Shown piece by piece: positions 14,115 through 33,093 of a DNA stretch of 43,362 nt (position 1 is its first letter; each line of letters begins with the position of its first letter). The DNA comes from Acetobacteraceae bacterium (GTDB lineage: Bacteria > Pseudomonadota > Alphaproteobacteria > Acetobacterales > Acetobacteraceae). The stretch lies in contig DATFDN010000076.1 in NCBI GenBank assembly GCA_035252035.1, positions 1 through 43,362 of the forward strand, in the 5' to 3' direction. The notes beneath the pieces are model-generated. The model did not search any database. It was not told where the DNA came from and worked only from the letters and a program-made list of their open reading frames with translations. The position numbers and the translations under genes were made by a program.

Positions 14115-15140
14115 CTAGCCGCCAGTTACGCTCATGTGCCGCGCGACGGCCGGACGATCGTGGCGCCGGTCGATAACGAAATCATGCCCCTTGGGCTTGC
14201 GCGCGATTGCGGCGCGGATTGCGTCCTCCAGTTGCGCGTCGCCGGCCCCGCCACGCAAGACCGCGCGCAGGTCGGCCTGGTCGTCCTGACCCAGGCACAT
14301 GTACAACGTGCCAGTGCAGGTGAGCCGCACCCGATTGCAGCTTTCGCAGAAATTGTGGGTCATGGGCGTGATGAAGCCGATGCGCCGCCCGGTTTCCGCC
14401 ACGTCGAAATAGCGCGCCGGACCGCCAGTGCGATATCCGGTCTCGGTGAGCGTCCAGCGCCGGCGCAGGCGGCCGCGCACGATCGAGAGCGGCAGATACT
14501 GGTCGGTGCGGTCTTCGGTGATCTCGCCCAGCGGCATGGTCTCGATCAGGCAGAGGTCGAAGCCGTGCTGTCCGCACCAGGCGATCAGGGCGTCGAAATC
14601 GTCCTCGTTCACGCCGCGCAGCGCCACGGTGTTGATCTTGATCGCGAGCCCCGCTCGCTTGGCGGCGAAGATGCCTTCGAGCACCTGTTCGATGCGGCCC
14701 CGCCGAGTCATCGCGGCGAAGGTTTCGGGATCGAGTGTGTCGAGCGACACATTCACGCGTCGCATCCCCGCCCGATAAAGGTCGGCGGCATAACGGGCGA
14801 GCTGCGTGCCATTCGTGGTGAGGGTCAGCTCGTCAAGGCCGGAGCCCAAGCGGCGGCCGAGCCGATCTATCAGCGTGAGCACGTCGCGGCGGACCAGCGG
14901 CTCGCCCCCGGTCAGGCGCAGCTTGCGCGTCCCGAGCCGGACGAACGCGGCGCAAATCCGCTCCAGCTCCTCAAGCGTGAGCAGGTCTCGTTTGGGGAGG
15001 AAGGTCATCTCCTCGGCCATGCAATACACGCAGCGGAGGTCGCAGCGATCCGTGACCGAGACGCGCAAATAGCTAATCGCCCGGCCGAACGGGTCGATCA
15101 TGGGAGATGGCTTCAGAGATGCGACTGACATAGCTGGCAT
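14115..15140 (-). CDS. moaA: GTP 3',8-cyclase (molybdenum cofactor biosynthesis protein A)
   Basis: Radical-SAM '[14 protein letters not shown]', '[11 protein letters not shown]', 'LTTNG', 'VNVSLDTLD', 'KINTV' and the C-terminal '[19 protein letters not shown]'. The start is ATG 15140, 15131 or 15101. The track start at 15431 would overlap the upstream gene. Confidence 0.9.
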
Positions 15141-15193
15141 AAGCAAGAAGTGCGCCACTCTGCCACCCGGATCAAGCCCCTCCGGGCGGACCT

Positions 15194-15382
15194 TCAATCC
15201 GGCGTGTCGAGCACGTCGAGCGCGACATGCGCGGTGTTGATCAGAACCTTCCCAGCATTCTCGAAATTGACCGTAACCCGCTCCCCAATGACGGATTGGA
15301 CCTGACCGAGCCCCCACTCCGGCCGAGTAGGGTGCCTCACCCATTGTCCAGGTTCGATCGTCGAGGCAGGAGGTGGCGTCAC
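15194..15382 (-). CDS. DUF3553-like small protein (62 aa)
   Basis: '[38 protein letters not shown]' resembles the SH3-like small alphaproteobacterial family I recall as DUF3553. It lies directly upstream of moaA on the same strand. Confidence 0.6.
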
Positions 15383-15507
15383 GAAGCGCCTCCACGTCCG
15401 TCGTAAACCTTACGTATAATTTTATAGACATGTCTCACTTTTTGGTCCACCTCTATCATGCTTGCCGCAAGACTGCCCGCCCGCGGCGGCCATGAGGAAC
15501 CTGGCTG

Positions 15508-16161
15508 ATGGACGATCCCCTGCGTCTTGCCGAGTTGATCGCGGCACGGATCTTCCACGACATCGGCAGCCTTGCCGGCACCCTCGCCGGCACCATCGAA
15601 CTCGCGTTGGAAGAGGCCGGCGCGGCAGGGGAAAGCCTGACCTCCGCGGCCGACCTCGCCGCGGAACTCAGCCGCCGCGTGCGCCTCCTGCGGGCCGCCT
15701 GGGGGCCAACCACGGAGGAGCTGGACATTGCACGCCTGCAAGATCTTGCCCTCGGCACGCCCGGAGCGCACCGAATGCGGCTCGACCTCTCGGGGCTGCC
15801 GCGAGAAAGCCTGTTTTCCCCGGAGTTGAGCCGTGTCCTCGTCAACGTGATTATCCTCGGCGCCGAGGCGCTGCCGCGTGGGGGTACGCTCACATTCTCC
15901 CCAACCAATGAGGCGCGCGTCCGCGCGAGCATTCGCGGCACACGGGCCGCCTGGCCCGCGGCGCTCGCGCCCTCGCTTGTCAGCGAGGCGGCCGCCTTGG
16001 CAGCCCTCGACAACCCGCGCACCGTGCTCGGCCCCTTGGTAGCGCTGATCGCGCACCGGCTTGGCATTCCCCTCGTGCTGGAGCGTGGCACGCACCCATC
16101 AGGCCGCCGAGGACCGCCCGCCCTGCTGATAGGTAGCCCGGCCGCGATGCCAGCCACATAG
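15508..16161 (+). CDS. ChpT-family histidine phosphotransferase paralogue (HPTransfase)
   Basis: 217 aa. 'LAELIAARIFHDIGSLAGTLAGTIELAL' (His17), 'LLRAAWG' and 'SRVLVNVIILGAEALPRGGTL' are collinear with Caulobacter ChpT 'LAARLCHDFISPASAIVSGLDLL', 'LLQFTRVAFG' and 'SRAVLNIAQIAASALPAGG' as I recall it. Confidence 0.7.
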   Translation: MDDPLRLAELIAARIFHDIGSLAGTLAGTIELALEEAGAAGESLTSAADLAAELSRRVRLLRAAWGPTTEELDIARLQDLALGTPGAHRMRLDLSGLPRESLFSPELSRVLVNVIILGAEALPRGGTLTFSPTNEARVRASIRGTRAAWPAALAPSLVSEAAALAALDNPRTVLGPLVALIAHRLGIPLVLERGTHPSGRRGPPALLIGSPAAMPAT

Positions 16162-16227
16162 CTTAACAGTTTCTTCTTCCATTCGGGCCAGTATCGGTCG
16201 CGCATCGATCCTGGGTCCGCAGACGAA

Positions 16228-18381
16228 ATGGACGAGTTGCTGGCCGATTTTTTGGCAGAAGCGAATGAGAGCCTTTCCGAACTGGACGCGACGCTGCTGC
16301 GGTTGGAGCGCAACCCAGACGATGCTGCGACGCTGTCACAAATCTTTCGCTCGGTGCATACCATCAAGGGCACCTGCGGCTTCCTCGGCCTACCACGCTT
16401 GGAGCGGTTAGCCCACGCCGCCGAAAATGTCCTGGGCCGGCTGCGGGATGGCACACTCGGCGCCAGCCCCGAAATCGTCACCTCGGTGCTGGCGGCACTC
16501 GATGGTGCGCGGACGATCCTGAGTAGCCTCGGTGCGACAGGTGCCGAGCCAGCGGGCGACGACATGGCCCTGATCGCCGCCCTCGACGAGGCCGCGCAAG
16601 GCCGGCCAACGGCACCCAAACCCGCCAGCGCACCCGAACCGGCCGCACCCGCGAGGGATGCGCAACTTGCTCCGCCGCACGCGCCAATTCCCGCCATCGA
16701 GCCTCCCCAGCCAGGGAGCGACGCTGCCGCCGCGCAGACGATCCGCGTCGCCGTGGACGTGCTCGATAACCTGATGACCTTGGTGAGCGAGCTGGTGCTG
16801 ACCCGCAACCAGTTGTTGCAGCTTGCCCGCGGCTTCCAAAACAGCGCGCTCGCCGCGCCCTTGCAGCGATTGTCGCACATCACTTCGGACCTTCAGGAAG
16901 GTGTGATGAAGACGCGGATGCAGCCGATCGGCAACGCCTGGAACAAGCTGCCTCGCTTGGTGCGCGATCTCGCACGCGATCTGGGCAAGTCGATCGAGCT
17001 CGCTATGCATGGCGCCGAGACCGAGCTTGACCGTCAAGTGCTGGAGCTCATCAAGGATCCGCTGACGCACATGATACGCAACGCCGCCGATCACGGGCTG
17101 GAGCCGCCGGATGAACGCAGGGCAGCGGGCAAGCGCGAGACGGGGCGGATTACGCTGACTGCGTTCCACGAGGGTGGCCACATCAACATCGAAATTGCCG
17201 ACGACGGACGCGGGCTGGCGGCCGAGCGCATCCGTGCCAAGGCGCTGGCCCAGGGCCTCGCGAGCGAGGCCGAGTTGGCAGCCATGAGCGAGGCGCAAAT
17301 CCAGCGGTTCATCTTCGATGCCGGGTTCTCGACGGCCACTACGGTCACTTCCATCTCCGGACGCGGCGTCGGGATGGACGTGGTGAAGACAAATATCGAG
17401 CGGATCGGCGGCACGATCGACCTGACGAGTCACCCCGGAAAGGGCACGACGTTCACCATCAAGATTCCGCTCACCTTGGCGATCGTCTCGGCGCTGGTGG
17501 TGGAAGCGGGCGGAGAGCGCTTCGCCATTCCGCAGATCAGCGTGATGGAGCTGGTCCGCGCCGGCCGGCCTGGCGAAGCCGGAGCCGAGAGCGTGATCGA
17601 GCGGATCAACGACACCCCGGTGCTGCGCCTGCGCAACCGCCTGCTGCCGCTGGTGAGCCTCGCCGGACTCTTGGGGCTGGCGGGATCGGACGGGACCGGC
17701 ATCATCGTCGTGGCCCAGGTCGGCTCCAGCCTGCTCGGCGTCGTTGTGGACCGGGTATTCGACACCGAGGAAATCGTGGTCAAGCCGGTGGCCCCGATGC
17801 TGCGCCAGCTCACCGTGTTCAGCGGCAATACGATCCTGGGAGACGGGTCGGTGATCATGGTCCTTGATCCCAACGGCATCGCGCGCGCCACGGGGATCGG
17901 CGCGGGCGAGAGCACGCGCCCTGCGCCAGCCTCGACCAGCGACGGCGCGGCATCGGGCAAACGCGAGGCCATGCTGCTATTCCGCGCCGGTGGCACGCGC
18001 CCGCTGGCCGTGCCGCTTAGCCTGGTGGCCCGACTCGAGCAGATCCCGCGCGAGCGGATCGAGGTCTCCGCAAGCGTGCCGGTGGTGCAGTACCGCGGCA
18101 AGCTGATGCCGCTCGTGGCGTTGTCCGGCGGCTCCGCTGACCATCCGTCATCCGCCACCCAGCCGGTGCTGGTTTTCGCGGATGGCGAGCGCAGCGCGGG
18201 ATTGATGGTGGACGAGATCGTGGACGTGGTCGAAGACCGCCTGGACATCGAGCTCTCAGCCACGCGGCCCGGCCTGCTCGGCACGGCAGTCATCGGCGGG
18301 CAGGCGACCGACGTGATCGATACGGCTTACTGGCTGGCGCGATTGCCCGCCCCGGCGCCTCGGCGGGAGGCCGGAGCATGA
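16228..18381 (+). CDS. cheA: chemotaxis histidine kinase CheA with two tandem C-terminal CheW-like domains and no receiver
   Basis: P1 Hpt 'FRSVHTIKGTCGFLG'. Kinase N-box 'HMIRNAADHGLE', G1 'DDGRG', G2 'SGRGVGMDVV'. P5 'ERFAIPQISVMELV...VVDRVFDTEEIVVKP...GDGSVIMVLD'. A second CheW-like module follows: 'AMLLFRAGG..PLAVPLSLVARLE...LMVDEIVDVVE'. Confidence 0.9.
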   Translation: MDELLADFLAEANESLSELDATLLRLERNPDDAATLSQIFRSVHTIKGTCGFLGLPRLERLAHAAENVLGRLRDGTLGASPEIVTSVLAALDGARTILSSLGATGAEPAGDDMALIAALDEAAQGRPTAPKPASAPEPAAPARDAQLAPPHAPIPAIEPPQPGSDAAAAQTIRVAVDVLDNLMTLVSELVLTRNQLLQLARGFQNSALAAPLQRLSHITSDLQEGVMKTRMQPIGNAWNKLPRLVRDLARDLGKSIELAMHGAETELDRQVLELIKDPLTHMIRNAADHGLEPPDERRAAGKRETGRITLTAFHEGGHINIEIADDGRGLAAERIRAKALAQGLASEAELAAMSEAQIQRFIFDAGFSTATTVTSISGRGVGMDVVKTNIERIGGTIDLTSHPGKGTTFTIKIPLTLAIVSALVVEAGGERFAIPQISVMELVRAGRPGEAGAESVIERINDTPVLRLRNRLLPLVSLAGLLGLAGSDGTGIIVVAQVGSSLLGVVVDRVFDTEEIVVKPVAPMLRQLTVFSGNTILGDGSVIMVLDPNGIARATGIGAGESTRPAPASTSDGAASGKREAMLLFRAGGTRPLAVPLSLVARLEQIPRERIEVSASVPVVQYRGKLMPLVALSGGSADHPSSATQPVLVFADGERSAGLMVDEIVDVVEDRLDIELSATRPGLLGTAVIGGQATDVIDTAYWLARLPAPAPRREAGA

Positions 18382-18854
18382 GTGCGGCCTTGTTCGATTG
18401 GCCCGCCGGCGCCCATGAGGGGGCACGGCAGTTCGTGACCCTGACCGTCGCCGAGCAGCTTTGCGGCGTGCCGGTCTTGGGGGTGCGCGACATCCTTTCA
18501 CGGCAGACAATCACCCGTATCCCGCTGGCACCCCCGGAGGTGGCTGGGAGCCTCAATCTACGCGGGCGCATCGTCACGGCCATCGACCTGCGCCGGCGGC
18601 TGCGCCTGCCCCCTGCCCCACCCGGAGCGCCGACGATGTCCGTTGTCACGGAGCAGGATGGCGAGCTCTACGCACTTGTGGTGGACCAGGTTCGCGAAGT
18701 GATGAGTCTGCCGACAGAGGCCTTCGAGCGGAATCCGCCGACGTTGCCGCCCGCCTGGCCGGCGTTCAGCAACGGCATCTATCGCCTCGCTGGCACGCTG
18801 TTGGTGGCGCTTGATGTCGCACGGCTGCTCGCGGTGCGGACCGAGCCGGGATGA
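18378..18854 (+). CDS. cheW: chemotaxis coupling protein CheW
   Basis: 158 aa. 'QFVTLTVAEQLCGVPVLGVRDIL', 'VAGSLNLRGRIVTAIDLRRRL' and 'LVVDQVREVM' match CheW. The ATG overlaps the cheA stop (ATGA). Confidence 0.85.
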   Translation: MSAALFDWPAGAHEGARQFVTLTVAEQLCGVPVLGVRDILSRQTITRIPLAPPEVAGSLNLRGRIVTAIDLRRRLRLPPAPPGAPTMSVVTEQDGELYALVVDQVREVMSLPTEAFERNPPTLPPAWPAFSNGIYRLAGTLLVALDVARLLAVRTEPG

Positions 18855-19933
18855 TGCCCGTCGAAGCCAGAGTCGCCGGCGCTGACACCGTGCGCGTCAT
18901 GATATGTGACGACTCCGTTGTCATGCGCGCCGCCATCGCGCGGGCGTTCGAAGCTGACCCCACGATACGCATCGTGGCTCGCGTCGCGGACGGGAAACAG
19001 GCTCTGGCCGAAGTGCGGCGCCAACCCATCGACGTGCTGGTGCTCGACATTGAAATGCCGGTGATGGACGGGTTGACGGCGCTGCCATTGCTGATGCGCG
19101 CCGCTCCACGGCTGCGCGTGCTGATGGTTTCCACCCTCACGACACGCGGCGCCGAGGTCACGCTTCAGGCGTTGCGGCTGGGCGCGGCCGACTATGTGGC
19201 GAAGCCGAGCGCCATCGCGGGGCAGAACGCTGAGCTGTTCCGTCGCGAGCTTCTGGATAGGGTGAGGGCTCTCGCGTCGCGTCCCGCGCGTCCATCCGGC
19301 GCCCGGACGACCGCTGTCGTCCCGGCGCGGCCACGTCTTGGACCCGCTGCGCTGCCCCGCCTGCTTGCGATCGGCAGCTCTACCGGCGGGCCGCAGGCCT
19401 TGCTCGCCCTGTTCGCGGCGCTTGGACGCACCGTGCCGGTTCCGGTGATCGTGACCCAGCACATGCCCGCCGCCTTCACGCCAATTCTCGCCCAGCACAT
19501 CACGCGTGCCGGGGGCCTGCCCTGCGCCGAAGCCGTTGATGGCGAAATGCTACTATCCGGACGTATTTATCTCGCGCCGGGAGACCGGCATCTGTTGATC
19601 GAGCGTGATGCCGCCGGCGCGCGTGCGCGGCTATCAACCGCGCCAGCGGTCAATTTCTGCCGTCCGTCGGTCGATCCAATGCTGGAGAGCGCAGCGGCCT
19701 CGTTCGATGGCCGCGTGCTGGTTGTCATGCTCACCGGCATGGGAAGCGACGGATTGGAGGGGACGCGCCGCGTGATCGAGGCCGGAGGGGCCGCCATTGC
19801 GCAGGACGAGGCGAGCAGCGTGGTATGGGGGATGCCCGGCGCCGTCGCTCAGGCGGGCCTCTGCCAAGCCGTTTTGCCGCTGAGCGCCATCGCGCCGCGT
19901 CTGCGCGAGGTGCTGCGAATCGCCGCGCAATGA
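18851..19933 (+). CDS. cheB: protein-glutamate methylesterase/deamidase CheB (REC + esterase)
   Basis: REC 'VRVMICDDSVVMR...DVLVLDIEMPVMDG...DYVAKP'. Esterase 'LLAIGSSTGGPQAL', 'VTQHMP..FT', 'MLTGMGSDG' and 'QDEASSVVWGMPG'. The ATG overlaps the cheW stop. Confidence 0.9.
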   Translation: MMPVEARVAGADTVRVMICDDSVVMRAAIARAFEADPTIRIVARVADGKQALAEVRRQPIDVLVLDIEMPVMDGLTALPLLMRAAPRLRVLMVSTLTTRGAEVTLQALRLGAADYVAKPSAIAGQNAELFRRELLDRVRALASRPARPSGARTTAVVPARPRLGPAALPRLLAIGSSTGGPQALLALFAALGRTVPVPVIVTQHMPAAFTPILAQHITRAGGLPCAEAVDGEMLLSGRIYLAPGDRHLLIERDAAGARARLSTAPAVNFCRPSVDPMLESAAASFDGRVLVVMLTGMGSDGLEGTRRVIEAGGAAIAQDEASSVVWGMPGAVAQAGLCQAVLPLSAIAPRLREVLRIAAQ

Positions 19934-20859
19934 GCGCGATCGCGGGGAGCAGTGCCTTCCAAATCCTGGCCGAGCTGCTGCGGTCGCGCTCGGGCCTCGC
20001 GATCGGTCCCGACAAGTTGTATCTGCTCGAAACCCGTCTCGGGTCGATCATCCGGCGCGAGAAGCTGGGCGACCTCGCCGGGCTCGCGCAGCGGCTGAGC
20101 GCACCAGCAGCCGAGACACTGGCCGGCGAGGTGGTCGAGGCGATGACCACCAATGAAAGCTTCTTCTTCCGCGACGACAAGCCCTTCGCGCATGTCCGCG
20201 CCAAGGCGCTGCCGCGCCTGCTGCTCGCGCGTCCGCCCGGAACCCCCATCCGTATCTGGTCCGCTGCCGCCTCGTCGGGGCAGGAGGCGTATTCGCTGGC
20301 GATAATCGCGGCGGAGCTGGGGGCCAGCAAGCGCGTTGAGATTGTCGGCACTGACATCGCCCGCGCCCAGCTCGCCCGTGCCCGCGAGGGACTCTATAGC
20401 CAGTTCGAGGTGCAGCGCGGCCTGCCGGTCCAGCTCCTGGCGAAACATTTCCGCAAGGAGGAGGACCAGTGGCGTGTCGCCCCGCCGCTGCGCGAGATGG
20501 TGCAGTTTCGTGAATGGAACCTGCTTGCCGATCCCGGCCCGCTGGGCCGCTTCGACATTGTGTTCTGCCGCAACGTGCTGATCTATTTCGACCAGCCCAC
20601 GAAGGCCCGCGTGTTGGAGGCGATTGCGCGGCAGATGGCCGAGGATGGCCTCCTCTATCTGGGGGGTACCGAGACGGTGTTGGGCCTTACGAATCAGCTC
20701 GTGCCGCTCGCCGAGGATCGCAGCGTCTATTCAAAGGTCGCCGCACCGCCCACCTCGATCTCCAGCCAGCCTCGCGCATCGAACCGACCCGTGTCACCCG
20801 CGCGCAGCAGCACGGTTGTCGTCTCCGACTCCACGATCGCCGGCCCGTGCAGCGCCTGA
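19930..20859 (+). CDS. cheR: chemotaxis protein methyltransferase CheR
   Basis: From the ATG at 19930, overlapping the cheB stop: 'MTTNESFFFRD..PF', 'IRIWSAAASSGQEAYSLAI', 'IVGTDI' and 'FDIVFCRNVLIYFD'. The last ~45 codons overlap the 3' end of hyuA on the other strand. Confidence 0.9.
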   Translation: MSAIAGSSAFQILAELLRSRSGLAIGPDKLYLLETRLGSIIRREKLGDLAGLAQRLSAPAAETLAGEVVEAMTTNESFFFRDDKPFAHVRAKALPRLLLARPPGTPIRIWSAAASSGQEAYSLAIIAAELGASKRVEIVGTDIARAQLARAREGLYSQFEVQRGLPVQLLAKHFRKEEDQWRVAPPLREMVQFREWNLLADPGPLGRFDIVFCRNVLIYFDQPTKARVLEAIARQMAEDGLLYLGGTETVLGLTNQLVPLAEDRSVYSKVAAPPTSISSQPRASNRPVSPARSSTVVVSDSTIAGPCSA

Positions 20860-22826
20860 CCGGACGCCAGTGCAGCGAAGTCGAACACCGCGAGATCGGA
20901 CCACGCGCCATCCAGCCAAACGCGGCGATTCGCGGGATGCTCCCTCTCCCCGGCCCCCTCCCGCAAGGGAAGGGGGAGAAGAGAATCCCCCTCCCCTTGC
21001 GGCAGGGGATTGGGGGAGGGGTCGCTCCCAAGCCGCCCTATCACCGAAAGCCGCGCGCTCACCAACACCGGCTCCTGCTCGCGCATCGCATAGGTGTAGA
21101 GCGCCGCGTGTCGGGCATGGAACGCCTCGGCGACCGCCTGCGCCGCATCGGGTGCGGCAAGGTCCAAGCCGTCCAGACCCACCGCGACCTCGAAGACCTG
21201 CTCGCCATAGCGCATATCGGCGGAGCGCTGGACCGAGATCATGCCCTCGAACTGGGGCAGACGGGAGCGGCCCTCGGCCTCCATGGCTTCGAACGCGGCG
21301 CGCAGAGCGGCAACGTCAAGGCTGCCGGTCTGCGTCAGGCTGCGCGTCAGTTCCACCCGCAAATCGGTGTTCAGCATTCCCCAGGCCGAAAGGACCGAGG
21401 CGGCCAGCGGCACGATGATCCGGCGCACGCCGAGTTCGGAGGCCACGGAAGCAATGTGCAGACCCGCCGCCCCGCCGAACGCGAGGATCGCGTGCCGGCG
21501 CGGATCGACCCCGCGCCGGACCGTGGCGATCCGCACGCCATCGGCCATCCGCGCGTTGACCAGGCGCACGATTCCCGCCGCTGCCGCCTCCGTGGCAAGC
21601 CCAAGCGCCTGGCCGATGCCGCCGATCGCCGTCTCGGCCGCTGCCCGATCGAGTTTACGCCGCCCGCCCAGGAAGCGCGCCGGGTCCAGCAGACCCAGCA
21701 CCAGATTGGCGTCGGTCACGGTCGCCCGCGTGCCGCCCAGCCCATAGCAGGCGGGTCCGGGATCGGCGCCCGCGCTCTCCGGCCCGACCTGGAGCAGCCC
21801 GGCGCCATCGACTCGTGCGACGCTGCCGCCCCCGGCCCCGAGGGTCACGATGTCCAGCGCCGGAAGGAAGATGCGCGCCTCTCCCACCTGCCGGCCGGCC
21901 GAAAGCGAGGGCTGGCCGCCCTGGACCACGGCGAGGTCGGTGCTGGTTCCACCCATGTCGAAGGTGATGAGGTCGCGTGGGATGCCTTGCCGCGACAACG
22001 CGACCGATGCCGCGACCCCGCCCGCCGGTCCCGACAGCGCCGTGCCGACGGCAAGCCGTGATGCTTCCTCCGCCGAGGCGACGCCGCCATGCGACAGGAT
22101 GACGTACACTGGCCCATCATACCCCTCTGCCGCCAGCCGGCCGGTCAGGCGGCGCAGATAGGCCGCGATCACCGGCCCGACCGCCGCGTTGGCGGCGGTG
22201 GTGGAGAACCGCTCGAATTCCTTGATTTGCGGCAGCACATCGGCCGAGGCGGTCACATAGGCGCCCGGCAGGCGCGCGCGAGCCGCCGTCGCGGCGATGC
22301 GCTCATGCTCCGGGTTGGCCCAGGCGTGCAGAAAGCAGACCGCGACCGCCTGCACTGGCTCGGCCGCCAACTGGTCGAGGGCCGCTTCCAGCGACGCGGG
22401 ATCGAGCGGCGTCTCGATCCGCCCGTCGGCGCGGATGCGCTCCGTCACGCCAAGCCGGAGCCGGCGCGGCACGATCGGCGCCGGCGGCGTCATGCGCAGA
22501 TTGTAGCGATCGGGCTTCAGCCCCTCACGCATCTCGATCACGTCGCGATGCCCGGCGGTGGTCAACAGGCCGACCCGTGCCGCCTTTCCCTCCAGCAACG
22601 CATTGGTCGCGACCGTCGTGCCGTGGACGACGCGCCCGGTGCGTCCGAGTAGCGCGGCCGGGCTCAGTGCCAATGTAGCAGCGGCGCACGCAATCGCATC
22701 CAGCACGCCGTCCACCGGATCGCGGGGCGTGGTGGGCGCCTTCGCGGCGATGATGGAGCCGCCCGCACCCCTGACGACGATATCGGTGAACGTGCCGCCG
22801 ACATCGATGCCGACAGCGTATATCAT
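20727..22826 (-). CDS. hyuA: hydantoinase/oxoprolinase family protein, A (ATP-binding) subunit
   Basis: 'MIYAVGIDVGGTFTDIV', 'VVHGTTVATNALLE', 'ITFDMGGTSTD' and 'TLGAGGGS'. The ATG at 22826 forms an ATGA overlap with the vapC stop. The alternative ATG at 22838 also overlaps vapC. Confidence 0.9.
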   Translation of the reverse strand: MIYAVGIDVGGTFTDIVVRGAGGSIIAAKAPTTPRDPVDGVLDAIACAAATLALSPAALLGRTGRVVHGTTVATNALLEGKAARVGLLTTAGHRDVIEMREGLKPDRYNLRMTPPAPIVPRRLRLGVTERIRADGRIETPLDPASLEAALDQLAAEPVQAVAVCFLHAWANPEHERIAATAARARLPGAYVTASADVLPQIKEFERFSTTAANAAVGPVIAAYLRRLTGRLAAEGYDGPVYVILSHGGVASAEEASRLAVGTALSGPAGGVAASVALSRQGIPRDLITFDMGGTSTDLAVVQGGQPSLSAGRQVGEARIFLPALDIVTLGAGGGSVARVDGAGLLQVGPESAGADPGPACYGLGGTRATVTDANLVLGLLDPARFLGGRRKLDRAAAETAIGGIGQALGLATEAAAAGIVRLVNARMADGVRIATVRRGVDPRRHAILAFGGAAGLHIASVASELGVRRIIVPLAASVLSAWGMLNTDLRVELTRSLTQTGSLDVAALRAAFEAMEAEGRSRLPQFEGMISVQRSADMRYGEQVFEVAVGLDGLDLAAPDAAQAVAEAFHARHAALYTYAMREQEPVLVSARLSVIGRLGSDPSPNPLPQGEGDSLLPLPLREGAGEREHPANRRVWLDGAWSDLAVFDFAALASGQALHGPAIVESETTTVLLRAGDTGRFDARGWLEIEVGGAATFE
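20936..21024. repeat. GC-rich REP-like double hairpin lying in frame inside the hyuA coding sequence
   Basis: 'ccccctccc-gcaa-gggaaggggg' and 'aatcccc...ggggatt' / 'cccctccccttgcgg'. It shares 'gctccctctcc' with the element at 1706 and 'cccctccccttgcgg' with the reverse complement of 9666-9684. It is translated as 'SDPSPNPLPQGEGDSLLPLPLREGAGERE'. Confidence 0.6.
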
Positions 22827-23209
22827 GCGGCGGCCCATAACTGGGCCACGCCGTCATAGGCGCGGATGACACTATCCGCGGTCAACAACGTGCAGGCCAA
22901 GCGCCGCGCCTGGGCGATGAGCATTCGATCGAAGGGATCGTCGTGGCGCCACGCCAGCGCGCCGGCCGACTCCGCGTCCACTGGGAGAATCGGTGCTTCG
23001 TGGAACCCGTTGGCGCCAATCGCGGCCACCGCCGAGCCTTCGAACTCCAACTTGTTCAGCCGCCGCTTGATGGCGATTTCCAACACCGACACCGCGCTGA
23101 CAAAGACCTGGTTGGCGGGGTCCGTGATCAGCGCGCTGGCATTCGCGCTCAATCCAGGATCCTGCCTGTCCCACCAGAGGAAGACATGCGTATCGAGCAG
23201 CAGGTTCAA
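22823..23209 (-). CDS. vapC: type II toxin, PIN-domain VapC family
   Basis: 128 aa. 'LLLDTHVFLWW', 'VSAVSVLEIAIK' and 'HDDPFDRMLIAQA......LLTAD' carry the PIN acidic residues and the typical VapC layout. Confidence 0.85.
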   Translation of the reverse strand: MNLLLDTHVFLWWDRQDPGLSANASALITDPANQVFVSAVSVLEIAIKRRLNKLEFEGSAVAAIGANGFHEAPILPVDAESAGALAWRHDDPFDRMLIAQARRLACTLLTADSVIRAYDGVAQLWAAA

Positions 23210-23448
23210 TCTTTCCTGCCCTCGAACAGGCGCTCGATGGCGGGATCAGGTGCATCGAAATCCGCGGCGAGGCGGCGGATGCGCATGGCGTTGGCGGGGC
23301 TGCGCGCCACGCCCCGAAAGGCGATCGGAACCAGCCTCGCCTGCGGCACGCCGTTCTTGGCGATAATGATCTCCTCACCGGCGGCGGCACGGGCGACCAA
23401 GCCGGAAAGCCGCGTCTTGGCCTCATAGAGACTGACGAACTGGGGCAC
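23206..23448 (-). CDS. type II antitoxin, Phd/YefM family
   Basis: 'VSLYEAKTRLSGLVARAAAGEEIIIAKNGVPQARLVP' and 'DFDAPDPAIERLF' are typical of this family. The GTG at 23448 lies 5 nt after a perfect SD AAGGAGG (23460-23454). The stop overlaps the vapC start (ATGA). Confidence 0.8.
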   Translation of the reverse strand: MPQFVSLYEAKTRLSGLVARAAAGEEIIIAKNGVPQARLVPIAFRGVARSPANAMRIRRLAADFDAPDPAIERLFEGRKD

Positions 23449-23505
23449 GAGAGCCTCCTTGACCGGGTCGACCAGTAACGGCAACGCCGCCGTTGGTCAA
23501 GCTGG

Positions 23506-28222: not shown

Positions 28223-30196
28223 GTGGCATCCAAACGCATGGAGCTGCCGATGCAGCCGGTGGACGACATCTTCAGCGCCTACGCCCGCGGCTATGAGGCG
28301 CATCGCGAAGCGGAGATGACGCTGGCCGAGTATCTCGAGGGATGCCGGACCGACCCGATGATGTACGCCAGCGCGACGGAGCGGCTGCTGGCGGCGATTG
28401 GCGAGCCCGAGATGGTGGACACCTCGAAGGACGCCCGCCTTGGCCGGATCTTCATGAACCGGACCATCCGCGTCTATCCGGCGTTCGACGAGTTCTACGG
28501 CATGGAGGAGACGATCGAGCGGATCGTCGGCTTCCTGCGCCACGCCGCCCAGGGCTTGGAGGAGCGCAAGCAGATCATGTATCTGCTCGGCCCGGTGGGC
28601 GGCGGCAAGTCGTCGCTGGCCGAGCGCATCAAGGCGCTGATGGAGGTCCATCCGATCTACGTGCTGAAGGCCGGCGACCAGGTCAGCCCGGTGTTCGAAA
28701 GCCCGCTCGGCCTGTTCAACCCCGAGCGGATGGGCGCGGTCCTGGAGGACCGCTACGGCATCCCCCGCCGGCGCCTGACCGGGCTGATGAGCCCATGGTG
28801 CCTCAAGCGGCTGGACGAGTTCGGCGGCGACATCTCGCGCTTCCGGGTGCAGCGCCTGATGCCCTCGCGCCTGCGCCAGATCGCCGTCGCCAAGACCGAG
28901 CCAGGCGACGAGAACAACCAGGACATCTCCTCGCTGGTGGGCAAGGTCGATATCCGCAAGCTGGAGCTGCACGCGCAGAACGACCCCGACGCCTACAGCT
29001 ACTCGGGCGGCCTCAACCGCGCCAACCAAGGCATTCTTGAGTTCGTCGAGATGTTCAAGGCGCCGATCAAGATGCTGCACCCGCTGCTGACGGCCACGCA
29101 GGAGGGGAACTACATCGGCACCGAGAATATCGGCGCCATCCCGTTCTCCGGCATCATCCTCGCCCACTCCAACGAGGCGGAATGGCAGAGCTTCAAGAAC
29201 AACCGGAATAACGAGGCCTTCATCGACCGGATCTACGTTATCAAGGTTCCCTATTGCCTGCGCGTGACGGAGGAGATCCGGATTTACCAGAAGCTTCTCG
29301 CCGGCAGCGAGCTGTCGGAGGCGCCCTGCGCTCCGGCCACCCTGGAGATGCTGGCCCGGTTTTCAGTGCTCTCGCGGCTGAAGCGCCACGAGAACTCCAC
29401 CGTGTACGCCAAGATGCGGGTCTATGACGGCGAGAGCCTGAAGGAGACCGACCCCAGGGCGCGCAGCCTGCAAGAGTACCGCGACGCCGCCGGCGTGGAC
29501 GAGGGCATGGACGGCGCCTCCACCCGATTCGCCTTCAAGGTGCTGGCCGCCACCTTCAACCACGACACCACCGAGGTGGCGGCTGACCCCGTCCACCTGA
29601 TGTACGTGCTGGAGCAGTCGATCCGGCGCGAGCAGCTCCCCGCCGAAACCGAGAAACGTTACCTGGAATTCATCAAAGGGGAGCTTGCGCCGCGCTACGC
29701 TGAGTTCATCGGCAACGAGATCCAGAAGGCCTATCTGGAGTCCTACAACGACTACGGGCAGAACCTCTTCGACCGCTATGTGGCCTATGCCGATGCCTGG
29801 ATCGAGGATCAGGACTACAAGGATCCCGACACTGGGCAGTTGCTCAACCGGGAGCTGTTGAACCAGGAGCTGACCAAGATCGAGAAGCCCGCCGGCATCG
29901 CGAATCCGAAGGATTTCCGCAACGAGGTGGTCAAGTTCTCGCTGCGGGCGCGGGCCGCGAACGCCGGGAAGAACCCGTCCTGGACCAGCTACGAGAAGCT
30001 TCGGGAGGTGATCGAGCGGCGCATGTTCTCCCAGGTGGAAGAGCTGCTCCCGGTCATCAGCTTCGGCTCGAAGAAGGACAGCGAGACGGAAAAGAAGCAC
30101 GAGGACTTCGTGAACCGCATGGCCGAGCGCGGCTATACGGAACGCCAGGTCCGGCGGCTGGTGGAATGGTATATGCGCGTCAAGCAGGCCGGGTGA
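28223..30196 (+). CDS. prkA: PrkA/YeaG-family serine protein kinase (AAA+ N-domain)
   Basis: 657 aa. 'AYARGYEAHREAEMTLAEYL', 'YPAFDEFYGMEETIERIV' and Walker A 'LLGPVGGGKSSLAE' are collinear with E. coli YeaG. The GTG at 28223 has SD 'gtgagg' 6 nt upstream. The ATGs at 28238 and 28250 are alternatives. Confidence 0.9.
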   Translation: MASKRMELPMQPVDDIFSAYARGYEAHREAEMTLAEYLEGCRTDPMMYASATERLLAAIGEPEMVDTSKDARLGRIFMNRTIRVYPAFDEFYGMEETIERIVGFLRHAAQGLEERKQIMYLLGPVGGGKSSLAERIKALMEVHPIYVLKAGDQVSPVFESPLGLFNPERMGAVLEDRYGIPRRRLTGLMSPWCLKRLDEFGGDISRFRVQRLMPSRLRQIAVAKTEPGDENNQDISSLVGKVDIRKLELHAQNDPDAYSYSGGLNRANQGILEFVEMFKAPIKMLHPLLTATQEGNYIGTENIGAIPFSGIILAHSNEAEWQSFKNNRNNEAFIDRIYVIKVPYCLRVTEEIRIYQKLLAGSELSEAPCAPATLEMLARFSVLSRLKRHENSTVYAKMRVYDGESLKETDPRARSLQEYRDAAGVDEGMDGASTRFAFKVLAATFNHDTTEVAADPVHLMYVLEQSIRREQLPAETEKRYLEFIKGELAPRYAEFIGNEIQKAYLESYNDYGQNLFDRYVAYADAWIEDQDYKDPDTGQLLNRELLNQELTKIEKPAGIANPKDFRNEVVKFSLRARAANAGKNPSWTSYEKLREVIERRMFSQVEELLPVISFGSKKDSETEKKHEDFVNRMAERGYTERQVRRLVEWYMRVKQAG

Positions 30197-30232
30197 GCCT
30201 GCTCCCCTGAGGAACGAGGACGGACAGGCTCA

Positions 30233-31534
30233 ATGCAGATCATCGACCGTCGCCTCAATCCTGGCGGCAAGAGCCTCGCCAACCGGCAGCGGTTCATCCG
30301 CCGTGCCAAGTCGCTGATCCGTAAGGCGGTGCATGAAAGCACCGCCAACCGGAGCATCAAGGACGCGGATGAGGCCGGCGAGGTCTCGCTGCCCGCCCAG
30401 GGCGTGCATGAAGCTACCTTCCACCGCGGCCAGTCTGGCGGCATCCGCGACTACCTGCTGCCCGGCAACAAGGAGTATGTGCGCGGCGATACCATTCCCC
30501 GCCCACCTTCCGGCGGCGGTGGCTCGGGCTCGGAGGGCAGCCCGGACGGGGAAGGGCAGGACGATTTCCGCTTCGCCCTGTCGCGTGACGAATTCGTGGA
30601 TCTCTTCCTGGAAGATCTCGAACTGCCCGATCTCGCCAAGCGGCGCGTCGTTGATACCGAGGCGCTGAGCTGGAGCCGCGCCGGCTACTCCGTCACCGGC
30701 TCGCCGGCGAACCTCGCGGTCATGCGCACGGTCCGCAACAGCCTGTCGCGCCGGATCGCCCTCAAGCGGCCGAGCGGCGAGGAGCTGGCGCGGCTGCGCG
30801 AGGAGATCAGCGCGCTTGCCGAGGACGACCCGAAGCGGACCGAACTGGAAGCAGAGCTGGACCGCAAGCTGCGGCGCTCCAGCCTAATCCCCTACATCGA
30901 CCCGATCGATGTCCGCTACCGGCGCTTCGAATCCCATCCGAAGCCCGTTGCCCAGGCAGTGATGTTCTGCCTGATGGATGTCTCGGGCTCGATGACCGAG
31001 CACATGAAGGATCTGGCGAAGCGGTTCTACGTCCTGCTGTACATCTTCCTGCGCCGGAAGTACAAGAGGGTGGAGGTGGTCTTCATCCGCCATACCCACC
31101 AGGCCCAGGAGGTGGACGAGGACACCTTCTTTCATTCGCCGGAGACCGGAGGAACGGTTGTGTCCACCGCGCTTGAGGAGATGCGGCGGGTCATGGCCGA
31201 GCGCTACAGCCCGGATTCGTGGAACATCTACGCCGCGCAGGCTTCCGATGGCGACAACACCGCGTCGGACAATGACCGGACAGCCAATCTGCTGACCCAG
31301 AGCATCCTGCCCTACTGCCAGTACTACGCGTATCTGGAGGTGGGCCGCGATTCCGAGCATTTCCCGCCCGGCTTCATCCGCCGCGACAGCGACCTGTGGC
31401 AGACCTACACCGAGATCTGCCGGACGGGTGCGCCGATGGCGATGCGCAAGGTCAGCCACCGTCGCGACATCTATCCCGTCTTCCGCGAGCTGTTCGCTCG
31501 CAAGCAGGCCCCTGCCGGAGCCGAAAGCCCATGA
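30233..31534 (+). CDS. yeaH: YeaH/YhbH family protein (DUF444, vWA-like)
   Basis: 433 aa. 'MQIIDRRLNPGGKSLANRQRF.RR', MIDAS-like 'FCLMDVSGSM' and 'IYAAQASDGDN'. Confidence 0.9.
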   Translation: MQIIDRRLNPGGKSLANRQRFIRRAKSLIRKAVHESTANRSIKDADEAGEVSLPAQGVHEATFHRGQSGGIRDYLLPGNKEYVRGDTIPRPPSGGGGSGSEGSPDGEGQDDFRFALSRDEFVDLFLEDLELPDLAKRRVVDTEALSWSRAGYSVTGSPANLAVMRTVRNSLSRRIALKRPSGEELARLREEISALAEDDPKRTELEAELDRKLRRSSLIPYIDPIDVRYRRFESHPKPVAQAVMFCLMDVSGSMTEHMKDLAKRFYVLLYIFLRRKYKRVEVVFIRHTHQAQEVDEDTFFHSPETGGTVVSTALEEMRRVMAERYSPDSWNIYAAQASDGDNTASDNDRTANLLTQSILPYCQYYAYLEVGRDSEHFPPGFIRRDSDLWQTYTEICRTGAPMAMRKVSHRRDIYPVFRELFARKQAPAGAESP

Positions 31535-33093
31535 ATTACGTCAACCACGACGCCGTTCGCCCGCTGTTCGAAGGCGCCGACTGGGAGTTCTCCACCGTCC
31601 AGCGCGCCTTCAACGCGATCGAGGCGGTGGCGCTCGGCGAGCTTGGCCTCGACGTTTATCCCAACCAGATCGAGGTTATCAGCGCCGAGCAGATGCTCGA
31701 CGCCTATTCCTCGGTCGGGATGCCGCTGTTCTACAAGCATTGGTCGTTTGGCAAGCACTTCGCCCGCCACGAAGGGCTATACCGCGCCGGTATGCAGGGG
31801 CTTGCCTACGAAATCGTCATCAATTCCAACCCGTGCATCTCCTACATCATGGAGGAGAATACGGCGACGATGCAGGCGCTGGTGATCGCCCACGCCGCGT
31901 TCGGGCATAACCACTTCTTCAAGAACAACTACTTGTTCCGCCAGTGGACGGATGCCGACGGCATCCTGGACTACCTCGACTTCGCCAAGGGCTATATCGC
32001 CAAGTGCGAGGAGAAGCATGGCGAGGCGGCGGTCGAGCGGCTGCTGGACTCCGCGCACGCCCTGATGAGCCAGGGGGTGCATCGCTATCCGCGCCGCCGC
32101 AGTGCGGACCTGCGCTCGGAGGAACGCCGGGAGCGGGAGCGGCGCGAGCACGAGGAGCGCGTGTTCAACGACCTATGGCGCACCGTGCCAGCCAAGGCCG
32201 CGTCGAAGCGGGACAAGACCGTGGAAGAGCGGCGGCGCGCCCTGCTCCAGTTGCCCCAGGAGAACATTCTATTCTTCCTGGAAAAGACCGCCCCGCGCCT
32301 GGCGCACTGGCAGCGCGAGGTGCTGCGCATCGTGCGGCATGTGGCGCAGTACTTCTACCCGCAGACCCAGACGAAGGTGATGAACGAGGGCTGCGCCACC
32401 TTCGTCCACTACAAGATCATGAACCGCCTGCACGAGAAGGGGCTGCTGACCGACGGATCAATGGTCGAGTTCCTGCGCTCCCACACCAACGTGGTGTTCC
32501 AGCCGGAGTTCGACGATCCGCGCTATTCCGGCATCAACCCCTACGCGCTCGGCTTCGCGATGATGCAGGACATCGAGCGGATCTGCACCGAGCCGACCGC
32601 CGAGGACCAGCACTGGTTTCCCGCCATCGCGGGGCGGGGTGATTCGATGGCCGTGCTGCGCGACTGCTGGGCCAATTACCGCGACGAGAGCTTCATCCTC
32701 CAGTTCCTCAGCCCGCGCCTAATCCGCCAGCTCGGCCTTTTCCACGTCGTGGACGACGCCGACGAGCCGACCTTGCGGGTGGAGGCGATCCACGATGAGC
32801 GCGGCTACCGCAAGATCCAGCGCGCGCTCGCCCGGCAATACGACATCGCCTGGTCGGTGCCCGACATCCAGGTGATGGATGTCGATCTCGCCGGCGACCG
32901 GCGGTTGATCCTGCATCATCGCGCGCTGAACCGCGTTCTGCTCGATGAGCGCGACGCGCGCCTCACCTTGCAGCACCTGGCCGACCTCTGGGGCTACGAC
33001 GTCGTGATGCGCGAGGTCGATCCGGTGAGCGAGGCGGTGCTCAAGGAACATGCCGCATCGCCGCGGCCAGGGTTGCTTCCCCCGGCCGCCTGA
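31531..33093 (+). CDS. SpoVR/YcgB family protein
   Basis: From the ATG at 31531 (ATGA overlap with yeaH): 'YPNQIEVISAEQMLDAYSSVGMP..YKHWSFGK', 'AYEIVINSNPCISYIMEENT' and 'HAAFGHNHFFKNN'. Confidence 0.9.
   Translation: MNYVNHDAVRPLFEGADWEFSTVQRAFNAIEAVALGELGLDVYPNQIEVISAEQMLDAYSSVGMPLFYKHWSFGKHFARHEGLYRAGMQGLAYEIVINSNPCISYIMEENTATMQALVIAHAAFGHNHFFKNNYLFRQWTDADGILDYLDFAKGYIAKCEEKHGEAAVERLLDSAHALMSQGVHRYPRRRSADLRSEERRERERREHEERVFNDLWRTVPAKAASKRDKTVEERRRALLQLPQENILFFLEKTAPRLAHWQREVLRIVRHVAQYFYPQTQTKVMNEGCATFVHYKIMNRLHEKGLLTDGSMVEFLRSHTNVVFQPEFDDPRYSGINPYALGFAMMQDIERICTEPTAEDQHWFPAIAGRGDSMAVLRDCWANYRDESFILQFLSPRLIRQLGLFHVVDDADEPTLRVEAIHDERGYRKIQRALARQYDIAWSVPDIQVMDVDLAGDRRLILHHRALNRVLLDERDARLTLQHLADLWGYDVVMREVDPVSEAVLKEHAASPRPGLLPPAA

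What the first reader, a model, noticed from the sequence alone, without database searches (positions are those of the whole stretch)
15508..20859. Che-like operon headed by a ChpT-family histidine phosphotransferase and lacking cheY and MCP genes
Seen: chpT-like, cheA, cheW, cheB and cheR are co-directional. cheA through cheR are chained by ATGA overlaps. The ChpT-like gene lies 66 nt upstream of cheA. No CheY, MCP, CheD/CheZ or flagellar genes are within the cluster or its flanks. CheA has no receiver domain, so the only REC domain is in CheB. Established: ChpT normally shuttles phosphate between receiver domains (CckA to CtrA/CpdR). Inference: this may be an 'alternative cellular function' chemosensory pathway whose output is routed through a His-phosphotransferase to a distal response regulator rather than to the flagellar motor. 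I do not know of a described ChpT-Che coupling.
Basis: partly seen in the sequence, partly recalled or inferred. Interest (0 to 1): 0.62.

Follow-up and report, generated by a model that had tools for sequence, protein, structure and literature searches.

The report
ChpT gene heading eroded chemotaxis operon
The small gene is this bacterium's ordinary, single-copy ChpT phosphotransferase in its ancient place just upstream of a flagellar-type chemotaxis operon, and the missing cheY and CheA receiver are recent losses in this lineage, not a new signalling design.

Summary
chpT (217 aa, PF10090), cheA, cheW, cheB and cheR are co-directional. There is a 66-nt gap and three ATGA overlaps. No cheY, MCP or flagellar gene lies in the 43-kb window.

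The interpretation mostly does not hold. The gene is the genome's only ChpT-family gene. It is single-copy in all 66 family genomes that have one, and CtrA is present elsewhere in this genome. Its profile and its predicted fold match the solved ChpT structures.

The chpT-cheA adjacency is not special to this locus. In a class-wide sample of Alphaproteobacteria, 75 of 101 genomes with both genes have cheA directly downstream of chpT. The usual layout is chpT, cheA(REC), cheW, cheY, cheB, cheR, then a convergent ctrA.

Relatives carry a CheA with a C-terminal receiver and a 122-aa cheY. This genus lost the receiver, and this species cleanly deleted cheY, as confirmed in independent metagenomes. 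Ten family genomes keep chpT with no CheA at all. A conserved CtrA-box-like motif sits between chpT and cheA in 53 of 53 loci.

Best reading: canonical CckA-ChpT-CtrA relay gene beside, and probably regulating through CtrA, an eroded flagellar chemotaxis operon. A direct Che-to-ChpT phosphorelay is untested and unlikely here.

The parts
14115..15101 (-). moaA (radical-SAM molybdenum cofactor synthesis gene), divergent upstream neighbour of chpT
   Evidence: Pfam Radical_SAM plus Mob_synth_C. The 328-aa gene call comes from the near-identical contig L133. It lies upstream of chpT in 69 of 72 evaluable related loci. It serves as a control showing strong synteny inertia without any functional link.
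15508..16161 (+). chpT, a 217-aa histidine phosphotransferase and the genome's only ChpT-family gene
   Evidence: PF10090 at 41.5 bits. It is the only hit over the cut-off in the own genome. The family profile hits Brucella ChpT 4QPJ at E 3.8e-25 and Caulobacter ChpT 4FMT/4FPP at about 1e-20. The AlphaFold model has pLDDT 92.4, and its top 7 Foldseek hits are all ChpT structures with TM about 0.7. dN/dS against the sister species is 0.21.
15556..15558 (+). Codon of His17, the predicted phospho-accepting histidine (ARIFHDIG)
   Evidence: His17 is at least 90% conserved and Asp18 is invariant in 37 homologues. The motif aligns with RICHD of 4QPJ and RLCHD of 4FMT.
15574..15585 (+). 12-nt direct-repeat copy (GCCGGCACCCTC, AGTL) that is polymorphic within the species
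   Evidence: It is absent from the 99.7%-identical contig L133, whose ChpT (P0002) has 213 aa. The window's length matches the other homologues.
16163..16180 (+). Conserved promoter or operator-like motif TTAACAGTTTCTTCTTCC in the chpT-cheA spacer, resembling a CtrA box (TTAA-N7-TTCT)
   Evidence: The motif TT(T/A)ACC-N-TTTCTTCG occurs in 53 of 53 family spacers, at a median of 73 nt upstream of the cheA ATG, against 0.1 of 53 in shuffles. At the same position, distant families have TTTAC-N6-TTAA or TTAAC half-sites. That CtrA binds it is an inference.
16228..18381 (+). cheA, 717 aa: P1 (His44), dimerisation domain, kinase domain and two CheW-like domains, with no P2 domain and no C-terminal receiver
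   Evidence: Pfam and catalytic motifs. Relatives' CheA proteins are 836-911 aa with a C-terminal REC. It is the only CheA in the genome.
18378..18854 (+). cheW
   Evidence: Pfam CheW at 109.6 bits. ATGA overlap with cheA.
18851..18854 (+). cheW/cheB ATGA junction, the scar of a clean deletion of cheY
   Evidence: Sister locus L009 and same-genus genome G015 carry a roughly 120-aa cheY at exactly this position. The junction is spanned by independent contigs.
18851..19933 (+). cheB (receiver plus methylesterase), the only receiver domain left in the operon
   Evidence: Pfam. NCBIfam CheB subfamily NF001965 at 384.9 bits, above the cut-off of 293.
19930..20859 (+). cheR methyltransferase (start at the ATGA overlap; the longest ORF begins at 19825)
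   Evidence: Pfam CheR and CheR_N. The 309-aa gene call comes from L133.
20727..22826 (-). Hydantoinase/oxoprolinase A, the convergent downstream neighbour, sitting where many relatives have ctrA
   Evidence: Pfam and the gene call in L133. ctrA is convergent after cheR in 12 family genomes and in 8 of 12 distant loci. The own-genome ctrA lies on contig C194.

Best explanation
The 217-aa protein is the organism's canonical ChpT, the dimeric, kinase-like histidine phosphotransferase that carries phosphate from the receiver domain of CckA to CtrA. It sits where chpT has sat since early in alphaproteobacterial evolution: directly upstream of, and co-directional with, a flagellar-type (Azospirillum Che1 / F5-like) chemotaxis operon. 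The ancestral form of that block is chpT, cheA(REC), cheW, cheY, cheB, cheR, followed by a convergent ctrA. The link between chpT and the che genes is most likely regulatory and historical. CtrA~P, produced through ChpT, switches on motility and chemotaxis genes. The che operon has its own conserved CtrA-box-like element in the 66-nt spacer. In this lineage the block has eroded. ctrA moved away, the genus lost the CheA receiver, and this species deleted cheY precisely, which left the cheA-cheW-cheB-cheR genes chained by ATGA overlaps. The remaining genes are intact and under purifying selection, and the cell still has flagellar genes, one CheA and two MCPs. The operon therefore probably still forms receptor arrays with adaptation through CheB and CheR. 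Its output receiver is unknown: it may be an orphan CheY-like protein or a gene in the unassembled 8% of the genome. Shown here: the gene identities, single copy, synteny statistics, the two losses and the motif. Inferred: CtrA binding, separate transcription of the che operon, and the phosphotransfer partners.
For: ChpT identity: PF10090; the profile hits 4QPJ, 4FMT and 4FPP over nearly the full length; the model has pLDDT 92.4 and all top 7 fold hits are ChpT with TM about 0.7, against 0.5 or less for true kinases; His17 is conserved.
Single copy: one hit in the own genome; exactly one in each of 66 family genomes; almost always one across the class.
Relay partners: CtrA is present in the own genome (337.5 bits to NF045991), and CckA-like hybrid kinases are present.
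Ancient synteny: cheA lies within 3 kb on the same strand in 42 of 66 family genomes and in 75 of 101 class-wide genomes that have both genes. Twelve distant loci show chpT-cheA(REC)-cheW-cheY-cheB-cheR, and 8 of them have a convergent ctrA.
Independence from Che: 10 family genomes keep chpT and ctrA with no CheA at all; two have chpT next to ctrA with no che genes between; 45 class-level genomes have ChpT but no CheA. chpT is still under purifying selection (dN/dS 0.21) in the clade that lost CheA-REC.
Erosion: relatives have CheA-REC and cheY, and the cheY deletion is clean.
Regulatory element: the motif is present in 53 of 53 spacers, with CtrA-box-like versions in distant lineages.
Flagellar character: FlhA and FliG are intact. 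In B. diazoefficiens, blr2191 is ChpT and blr2192 is cheA2, the main chemotaxis kinase (PMC4287336; 10.1101/2025.10.14.682368).
Synteny inertia control: the unrelated gene moaA is adjacent to chpT in 69 of 72 loci.
Against: No exact TTAA-N7-TTAA box lies near chpT or cheA in the window or in 51 family loci. The conserved motif departs from the consensus in its second half, so CtrA binding is unproven.
No terminator-like or sigma-70-like site was found in the spacer, so co-transcription of chpT with cheA cannot be excluded.
The same-strand, immediately adjacent chpT-cheA junction is conserved across the class far more strongly than co-regulation alone requires.
NCBIfam ChpT equivalog scores are far below their cut-offs (43.5 against 225), and no CckA candidate reaches the equivalog cut-off.
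25 family genomes have CheA, and 47 have CtrA, without a detectable PF10090 gene. The relay may therefore be wired differently in parts of this family (see also Brilli 2010, PMC2877005).
No CheY orthologue was found in the 92%-complete genome, so the output of the che operon is unexplained.
Confidence: 0.75

Rival explanations
1. ChpT is a genuine phosphotransfer partner of the adjacent Che pathway. In the ancestral block the hybrid CheA passes phosphate from its own receiver to ChpT and on to CtrA, or in the reverse direction, so chemoreceptor arrays feed the CtrA switch. In this window that link would be either lost or carried by CheB-REC.
For: The junction is class-wide, same-strand and immediately adjacent in 75 of 101 genomes. 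chpT and ctrA bracket the operon. The CheA of relatives is a hybrid kinase with a C-terminal receiver, which is the kind of domain that Hpt proteins serve. No published account of the synteny was found. From memory, Sphingomonas melonis has a second hybrid kinase (CcsA) feeding ChpT, which is a precedent for branched input.
Against: chpT is kept with ctrA in genomes that have no CheA. This genus lost CheA-REC and this species lost cheY, yet chpT stays intact under purifying selection. A conserved promoter-like element separates chpT from cheA. moaA-chpT adjacency is even better conserved without any functional link. CheA-REC from a relative shows no special similarity to CckA-type receivers in this genome. 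In this window the only Che receiver is CheB.
Confidence: 0.1
2. After losing cheY and CheA-REC, the operon has been repurposed, or is on its way to being lost. CheA, CheW, CheB and CheR would then signal to an orphan receiver protein with a non-motor output (ACF-like), or would no longer signal at all.
For: There is no cheY in the operon and no CheY orthologue in the genome. The best small receiver scores only 45 bits against the relatives' CheY. The genome has only two MCPs and one CheA. Other related loci show different erosions, for example loss of cheB in 12 of 50.
Against: All four genes are intact with translational coupling. dN/dS is 0.15-0.20. CheA, CheB and CheR are 100% identical in protein and CheW 99% between two strains that differ at the nucleotide level. 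Flagellar genes are intact. The genome is only 92% complete in 599 contigs, so a cheY may simply be unassembled.
Confidence: 0.12
3. The adjacency of chpT and cheA is a chance juxtaposition with no meaning.
For: In this particular window the neighbours on both sides (moaA and the hydantoinase genes) are unrelated housekeeping genes.
Against: The adjacency is conserved in 55 of 69 close loci, in 42 of 66 family genomes and in 75 of 101 class-wide genomes, always on the same strand.
Confidence: 0.02

Closest known systems
ChpT of the CckA-ChpT-CtrA/CpdR phosphorelay (Caulobacter CC_3470, PDB 4FMT/4FPP; Brucella ChpT, PDB 4QPJ/4QPK)
   Same: It shares the Pfam family, the full-length profile match, the predicted DHp plus pseudo-CA fold (TM about 0.7) and the phospho-His motif R-x-C/F-H-D. 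It is single-copy per genome, and CtrA is present in the genome.
   Different: Sequence identity is only 20-25%, and the NCBIfam equivalog models score far below their cut-offs. An earlier best-hit survey missed ChpT in Acetobacteraceae (PMC2877005). The species is polymorphic for a 4-residue indel in the helix after the His. No biochemistry has been done.
Azospirillum brasilense Che1 operon cheA1-cheW1-cheY1-cheB1-cheR1 (five genes per PMC8561660; the F5 class assignment is recalled from Wuichet and Zhulin 2010 and was not tested here)
   Same: The relatives of this window share the gene order and a CheA with two CheW-like domains and a C-terminal receiver. The operon contains no MCP gene.
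   Different: The window's operon has lost cheY and the CheA receiver. I could not verify here that chpT lies upstream of che1 in Azospirillum; that is only a lead from earlier scan notes.
Bradyrhizobium diazoefficiens USDA110 blr2191 (ChpT) and blr2192 (cheA2, che2 operon)
   Same: chpT lies immediately upstream of a cheA on the same strand, judged from consecutive locus tags in two papers. That cheA is the main driver of flagellar chemotaxis.
   Different: According to the preprint, CheA2 there has the canonical architecture and the operon has a cheY. Neither paper comments on the adjacency.
Branched CcsA/CckA-ChpT-CtrA relay of Sphingomonas melonis (recalled from memory, not checked here)
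   Same: It shows that ChpT can take input from a second hybrid kinase, which is the precedent for the bold reading.
   Different: The second kinase there is not a CheA, and nothing here shows a second input.

Membership tests
ChpT histidine phosphotransferase | HPTransfase (PF10090) pseudo-CA domain above the gathering score | tested here: met
   41.5 bits against a cut-off of 22.9. All listed homologues carry PF10090.
ChpT histidine phosphotransferase | Conserved phospho-accepting His in the first DHp helix (R-x-C-H-D motif) | tested here: met
   His17 is at least 90% conserved and Asp18 and Arg14 are invariant in 37 sequences. The motif aligns to RICHD and RLCHD of the solved ChpT proteins.
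ChpT histidine phosphotransferase | Histidine-kinase-like fold (DHp hairpin plus degenerate CA domain) closest to the solved ChpT structures | tested here: met
   The model has pLDDT 92.4 and pTM 0.89. Foldseek ranks 1-7 are 4QPJ, 4FPP, 4FMT and 4QPK with TM 0.66-0.73. True kinases score 0.5 or less.
ChpT histidine phosphotransferase | One orthologue per genome, together with CckA and CtrA | tested here: inconclusive
   Single copy is met. A CtrA is present at 337.5 bits, just under the cut-off of 350. Several CckA-like hybrid kinases are present, but none is near the equivalog cut-off. The genome is 92% complete.
ChpT histidine phosphotransferase | NCBIfam ChpT equivalog score (Caulobacter or Brucella/Rhizobium type) | tested here: not met
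   43.5 and 34.3 bits against cut-offs of 225 and 240. These models are lineage-specific, so the result shows divergence and not exclusion from the family.
ChpT histidine phosphotransferase | Phosphotransfer from CckA-REC to ChpT to CtrA/CpdR | not testable with these tools
   This needs purified proteins.
F5-like flagellar chemotaxis operon (Che1 type) | Gene order cheA-cheW-cheY-cheB-cheR without an MCP gene | tested here: not met
   The window lacks cheY. 45 of 50 related loci and 12 of 12 distant loci have it. The window is therefore a derived, eroded form.
F5-like flagellar chemotaxis operon (Che1 type) | CheA with two CheW-like domains and a C-terminal receiver | tested here: not met
   Two CheW-like stretches are present, but the receiver is absent. 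It is present in 43 of 50 related loci.
F5-like flagellar chemotaxis operon (Che1 type) | Assignment by the MiST / Wuichet-Zhulin class HMMs | not testable with these tools
   The class HMMs are not available here.
F5-like flagellar chemotaxis operon (Che1 type) | Flagellar genes present in the genome | tested here: met
   FlhA at 808.8 bits and FliG_C at 128.7 bits, both in intact frames on contig C325.
ACF (alternative cellular function) chemosensory pathway | Class HMM or phylogenetic placement, and an output other than the flagellar motor | not testable with these tools
   There is no positive evidence for it. The orthologous operons of relatives carry cheY, and the Bradyrhizobium counterpart drives chemotaxis (10.1101/2025.10.14.682368).

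The most novel reading that the evidence does not exclude
The near-universal, same-strand chpT-cheA junction, often bracketed by ctrA, exists because ChpT exchanges phosphoryl groups with a receiver of the Che pathway (CheA-REC, CheY or CheB-REC). Chemoreceptor arrays would then tune CtrA activity in many Alphaproteobacteria. This species would be a natural knock-out of two of the three candidate receivers, leaving CheB-REC as the only possible partner.
Probability: 0.1. Interest if true: 0.8.

Novelty: new member of a known kind. Interest (0 to 1): 0.3.

Why it matters
As it stands, this is a divergent but ordinary ChpT next to an eroded chemotaxis operon. Three points have modest value.

(1) It places a ChpT orthologue in Acetobacteraceae, where an early comparative study found none.

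(2) It adds to the evidence that chpT, an F5-like che operon and ctrA form an ancient gene block. That fits the view that the ancestral job of the CtrA relay was control of motility. I did not find the block described in the searchable literature.

(3) This lineage is a natural experiment. The CheA receiver and cheY are gone, yet chpT stays intact and selected. That argues against an obligatory ChpT-Che receiver partnership.

If the bold reading were true, it would reveal a new input into a master regulator.

Tried and rejected
Exact CtrA boxes (TTAA-N7-TTAA, with 0-1 mismatch) near chpT and cheA: none in the window and none in 51 family loci. I therefore describe the conserved motif only as CtrA-box-like.

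Genome-wide search for the motif, to define a regulon: only the window copy was found, against 0.25 expected. This was uninformative.

Sigma-70 promoter and intrinsic terminator scans of 15000-16500: nothing found.

RNA evidence for co-transcription: only DNA metagenome runs hold the stretch.

Search for a replacement CheY: phmmer with the relatives' CheY against all ORFs of the genome found only generic receivers.

Chimera hypothesis, that the CheB N-terminus arose by cheY/cheB recombination: rejected. The alignment shows a clean excision between the cheW stop and the cheB receiver.

Assembly artefact for the cheY loss: rejected.

NCBIfam naming of CckA: several paralogous hybrid kinases score 280-350 bits against a cut-off of 1000, so no assignment was made.

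Literature searches for a described chpT-che link: six queries found nothing explicit.

Confirming the F5 label for Azospirillum Che1 from the two papers I opened failed, so the label rests on memory.
Full report
OBSERVATION. Pfam assigns 15508-16161(+) to HPTransfase PF10090 (41.5 bits). It assigns 16228-18381 to CheA, with Hpt, H-kinase_dim, HATPase_c and two CheW-like stretches and no receiver. 18378-18854 is CheW, 18851-19933 is CheB (receiver plus methylesterase) and 19930-20859 is CheR. The chpT-cheA gap is 66 nt, and the three downstream junctions read ATGA. The CheA catalytic motifs are intact. Pfam scans of the other ORFs over the whole 43-kb window found only metabolic and transport genes. 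There was no MCP, CheY, CheD/Z or flagellar gene. The upstream neighbour is a divergent moaA, and the downstream neighbours are convergent hydantoinase genes.

WHAT THE SMALL GENE IS. A profile built from 37 homologues, which are Acetobacteraceae MAG proteins, matches the solved ChpT proteins over almost the full length. Brucella ChpT (4QPJ/4QPK) scores E 3.8e-25 and Caulobacter ChpT (4FMT/4FPP) scores about 1e-20. The R-x-C/F-H-D phospho-His motif is aligned in both. An AlphaFold model has pLDDT 92.4. Its seven best structural neighbours are those same ChpT entries, with TM about 0.7. Genuine histidine kinases follow at TM 0.5 or less. His17 is at least 90% conserved. NCBIfam's ChpT equivalogs are the best hits but score far below their cut-offs. 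The protein is therefore a divergent member of the family. This fits an early best-hit survey that found no chpT in this group (PMC2877005).

IS IT A SPECIAL, CHE-DEDICATED PARALOGUE? It is not. It is the only PF10090 gene over the cut-off in this 92%-complete genome. Among 121 genomes of the family, 66 have such a gene, and each has exactly one. Across 251 genomes of the class the count is almost always one. The own genome also has a CtrA (C194, 337.5 bits to NF045991) and several CckA-like hybrid kinases. The simplest reading is that this is the canonical ChpT of the CckA-ChpT-CtrA relay.

THE SYNTENY IS OLD AND WIDE. Among the 80 closest loci, moaA lies upstream in 69 of 72 evaluable cases and cheA lies downstream in 55 of 69. 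In the family sample, 42 of 66 chpT genes have cheA within 3 kb on the same strand. Twelve of these also have ctrA convergent about 6 kb away, on the far side of the che operon. Two genomes have chpT beside ctrA with no che genes between. In a class-wide sample, 75 of 101 genomes with both genes have cheA immediately downstream of chpT. Twelve loci fetched from different families show chpT, cheA(REC), cheW, cheY, cheB, cheR, and eight of them end with a convergent ctrA. Two papers together show the same adjacency in a model organism. Blr2191 is ChpT (PMC4287336). blr2192 is cheA2, the main kinase for chemotaxis of Bradyrhizobium diazoefficiens (10.1101/2025.10.14.682368). Earlier notes of this scan report the same block in more than 40 genomes. 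I reached the same picture independently from my own counts.

WHAT IS PARTICULAR TO THIS WINDOW. In relatives, CheA is 836-911 aa with a C-terminal receiver, and a 122-aa cheY lies between cheW and cheB. Among 50 complete related loci, 43 have the receiver and 45 have cheY. The same-genus genome G015 and the sister locus L009 lack the CheA receiver but keep cheY. The window's species has excised cheY cleanly, so that the cheW stop now overlaps the cheB start. A 99.7%-identical contig from another assembly has the same order. Contigs of runs from two studies cross the junction. The features that made the locus look like a new design, no cheY and no CheA receiver, are therefore recent losses. 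ctrA has also moved away in this sub-clade: 0 of 50 loci have it downstream.

DOES ChpT DEPEND ON THE CHE PATHWAY? Ten family genomes keep chpT and ctrA with no CheA anywhere. Forty-five class-level genomes have ChpT without CheA. In the clade that lost the CheA receiver, chpT is still under purifying selection. Its dN/dS is 0.21, similar to the 0.15-0.20 of the che genes. Conserved adjacency alone is weak evidence here, because the unrelated moaA is an even more faithful neighbour.

A REGULATORY ELEMENT BETWEEN chpT AND cheA. All 53 family spacers, including the window's, carry TT(T/A)ACC-N-TTTCTTCG about 73 nt upstream of the cheA start. Shuffled sequences give 0.1 of 53. The window's copy (16163-16180) begins two bases after the chpT stop codon. 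At the same place, distant families have TTTAC-N6-TTAA, TTAAC half-sites or full TTAA-N7-TTAA boxes. The family motif therefore looks like a diverged CtrA box. No exact box exists in this family, and I found no second copy in the genome. CtrA binding is thus inferred and not shown. The element suggests that the che operon has its own regulated promoter, although read-through from chpT is not excluded.

HOW IT MOST LIKELY WORKS. CckA phosphorylates its own receiver. ChpT (His17) shuttles the phosphate to CtrA. CtrA~P then activates motility genes, including this che operon. The first two steps are established for the family and inferred here; the activation of this che operon is my inference. 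The operon encodes a kinase, a coupling protein and the adaptation pair. With the two MCPs elsewhere in the genome and intact flagellar genes, it probably still builds receptor arrays. The missing piece is the output receiver. No CheY orthologue was found, but 8% of the genome is unassembled.

RIVALS. A direct CheA-REC/CheY/CheB to ChpT relay remains possible in general. The class-wide, same-strand junction bracketed by ctrA is striking, and I found it undescribed in six literature searches. It is nonetheless disfavoured by the independence data, and in this window only CheB-REC could take part (about 0.1). Repurposing or decay of the CheY-less operon is possible (about 0.12). Chance juxtaposition is excluded.

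VERDICT. This is a divergent canonical ChpT in its ancestral position beside an eroded F5-like chemotaxis operon. It is a new member of known kinds and of modest interest. Its main value is as a natural experiment bearing on an unexplained, ancient synteny.

Noticed in passing
window 15574-15585: There is a 12-nt direct-repeat indel (AGTL) in the ChpT helix just after the phospho-His, and it is polymorphic within the species. The window has the ancestral length. The 99.7%-identical contig L133 and a Logan contig encode the 213-aa form (P0002).
   Followed up: partly
window 16163-16180; L009-L088 about 73 nt upstream of cheA: A strongly conserved motif TT(T/A)ACC-N-TTTCTTCG occurs in 53 of 53 chpT-cheA spacers. 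In most relatives a second block, CCAGGATGG, follows about 13 nt later. It is possibly a diverged CtrA operator with its promoter.
   Followed up: partly
L119-L130 (distant alphaproteobacterial families); G003, G011, G014, G016, G023, G027, G039, G041, G054, G101: ctrA lies convergent directly after cheR, so chpT and ctrA bracket the che operon. In G103 and G119, chpT and ctrA are neighbours with no che genes between them.
   Followed up: partly
L050, L055, L056, L070, L072, L073, L076, L086: A sub-group of related loci has chpT, cheA, cheW and cheR but no detectable cheB. This is a different erosion pattern of the same operon.
   Followed up: no
window 22823-23450 (-): A PIN-domain toxin gene and a PhdYeFM antitoxin gene are inserted between the hydantoinase A and B genes.
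   Followed up: no
window 28223-33093 (+): A PrkA, DUF444 and SpoVR trio, the conserved stress and starvation kinase cluster, is intact.
   Followed up: no
own genome contig C304:240-2860 (-): A second, distant CheB-like and CheR-like pair (about 30-33% identity) has no CheA or CheW nearby. It is probably part of a different methylation-linked signalling protein set.
   Followed up: no
own genome contig C574:19-630: A second CtrA-like response regulator (232 bits to the CtrA model, 49% identity to Caulobacter CtrA) lies at a contig end.
   Followed up: no
family-level genomes: 47 of 112 CtrA-positive and 25 of 81 CheA-positive family genomes have no PF10090 hit at E<=1e-5. In G040 and G044, cheA still lies about 7 kb from a convergent ctrA, so a more divergent chpT may be hiding upstream.
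   Followed up: no
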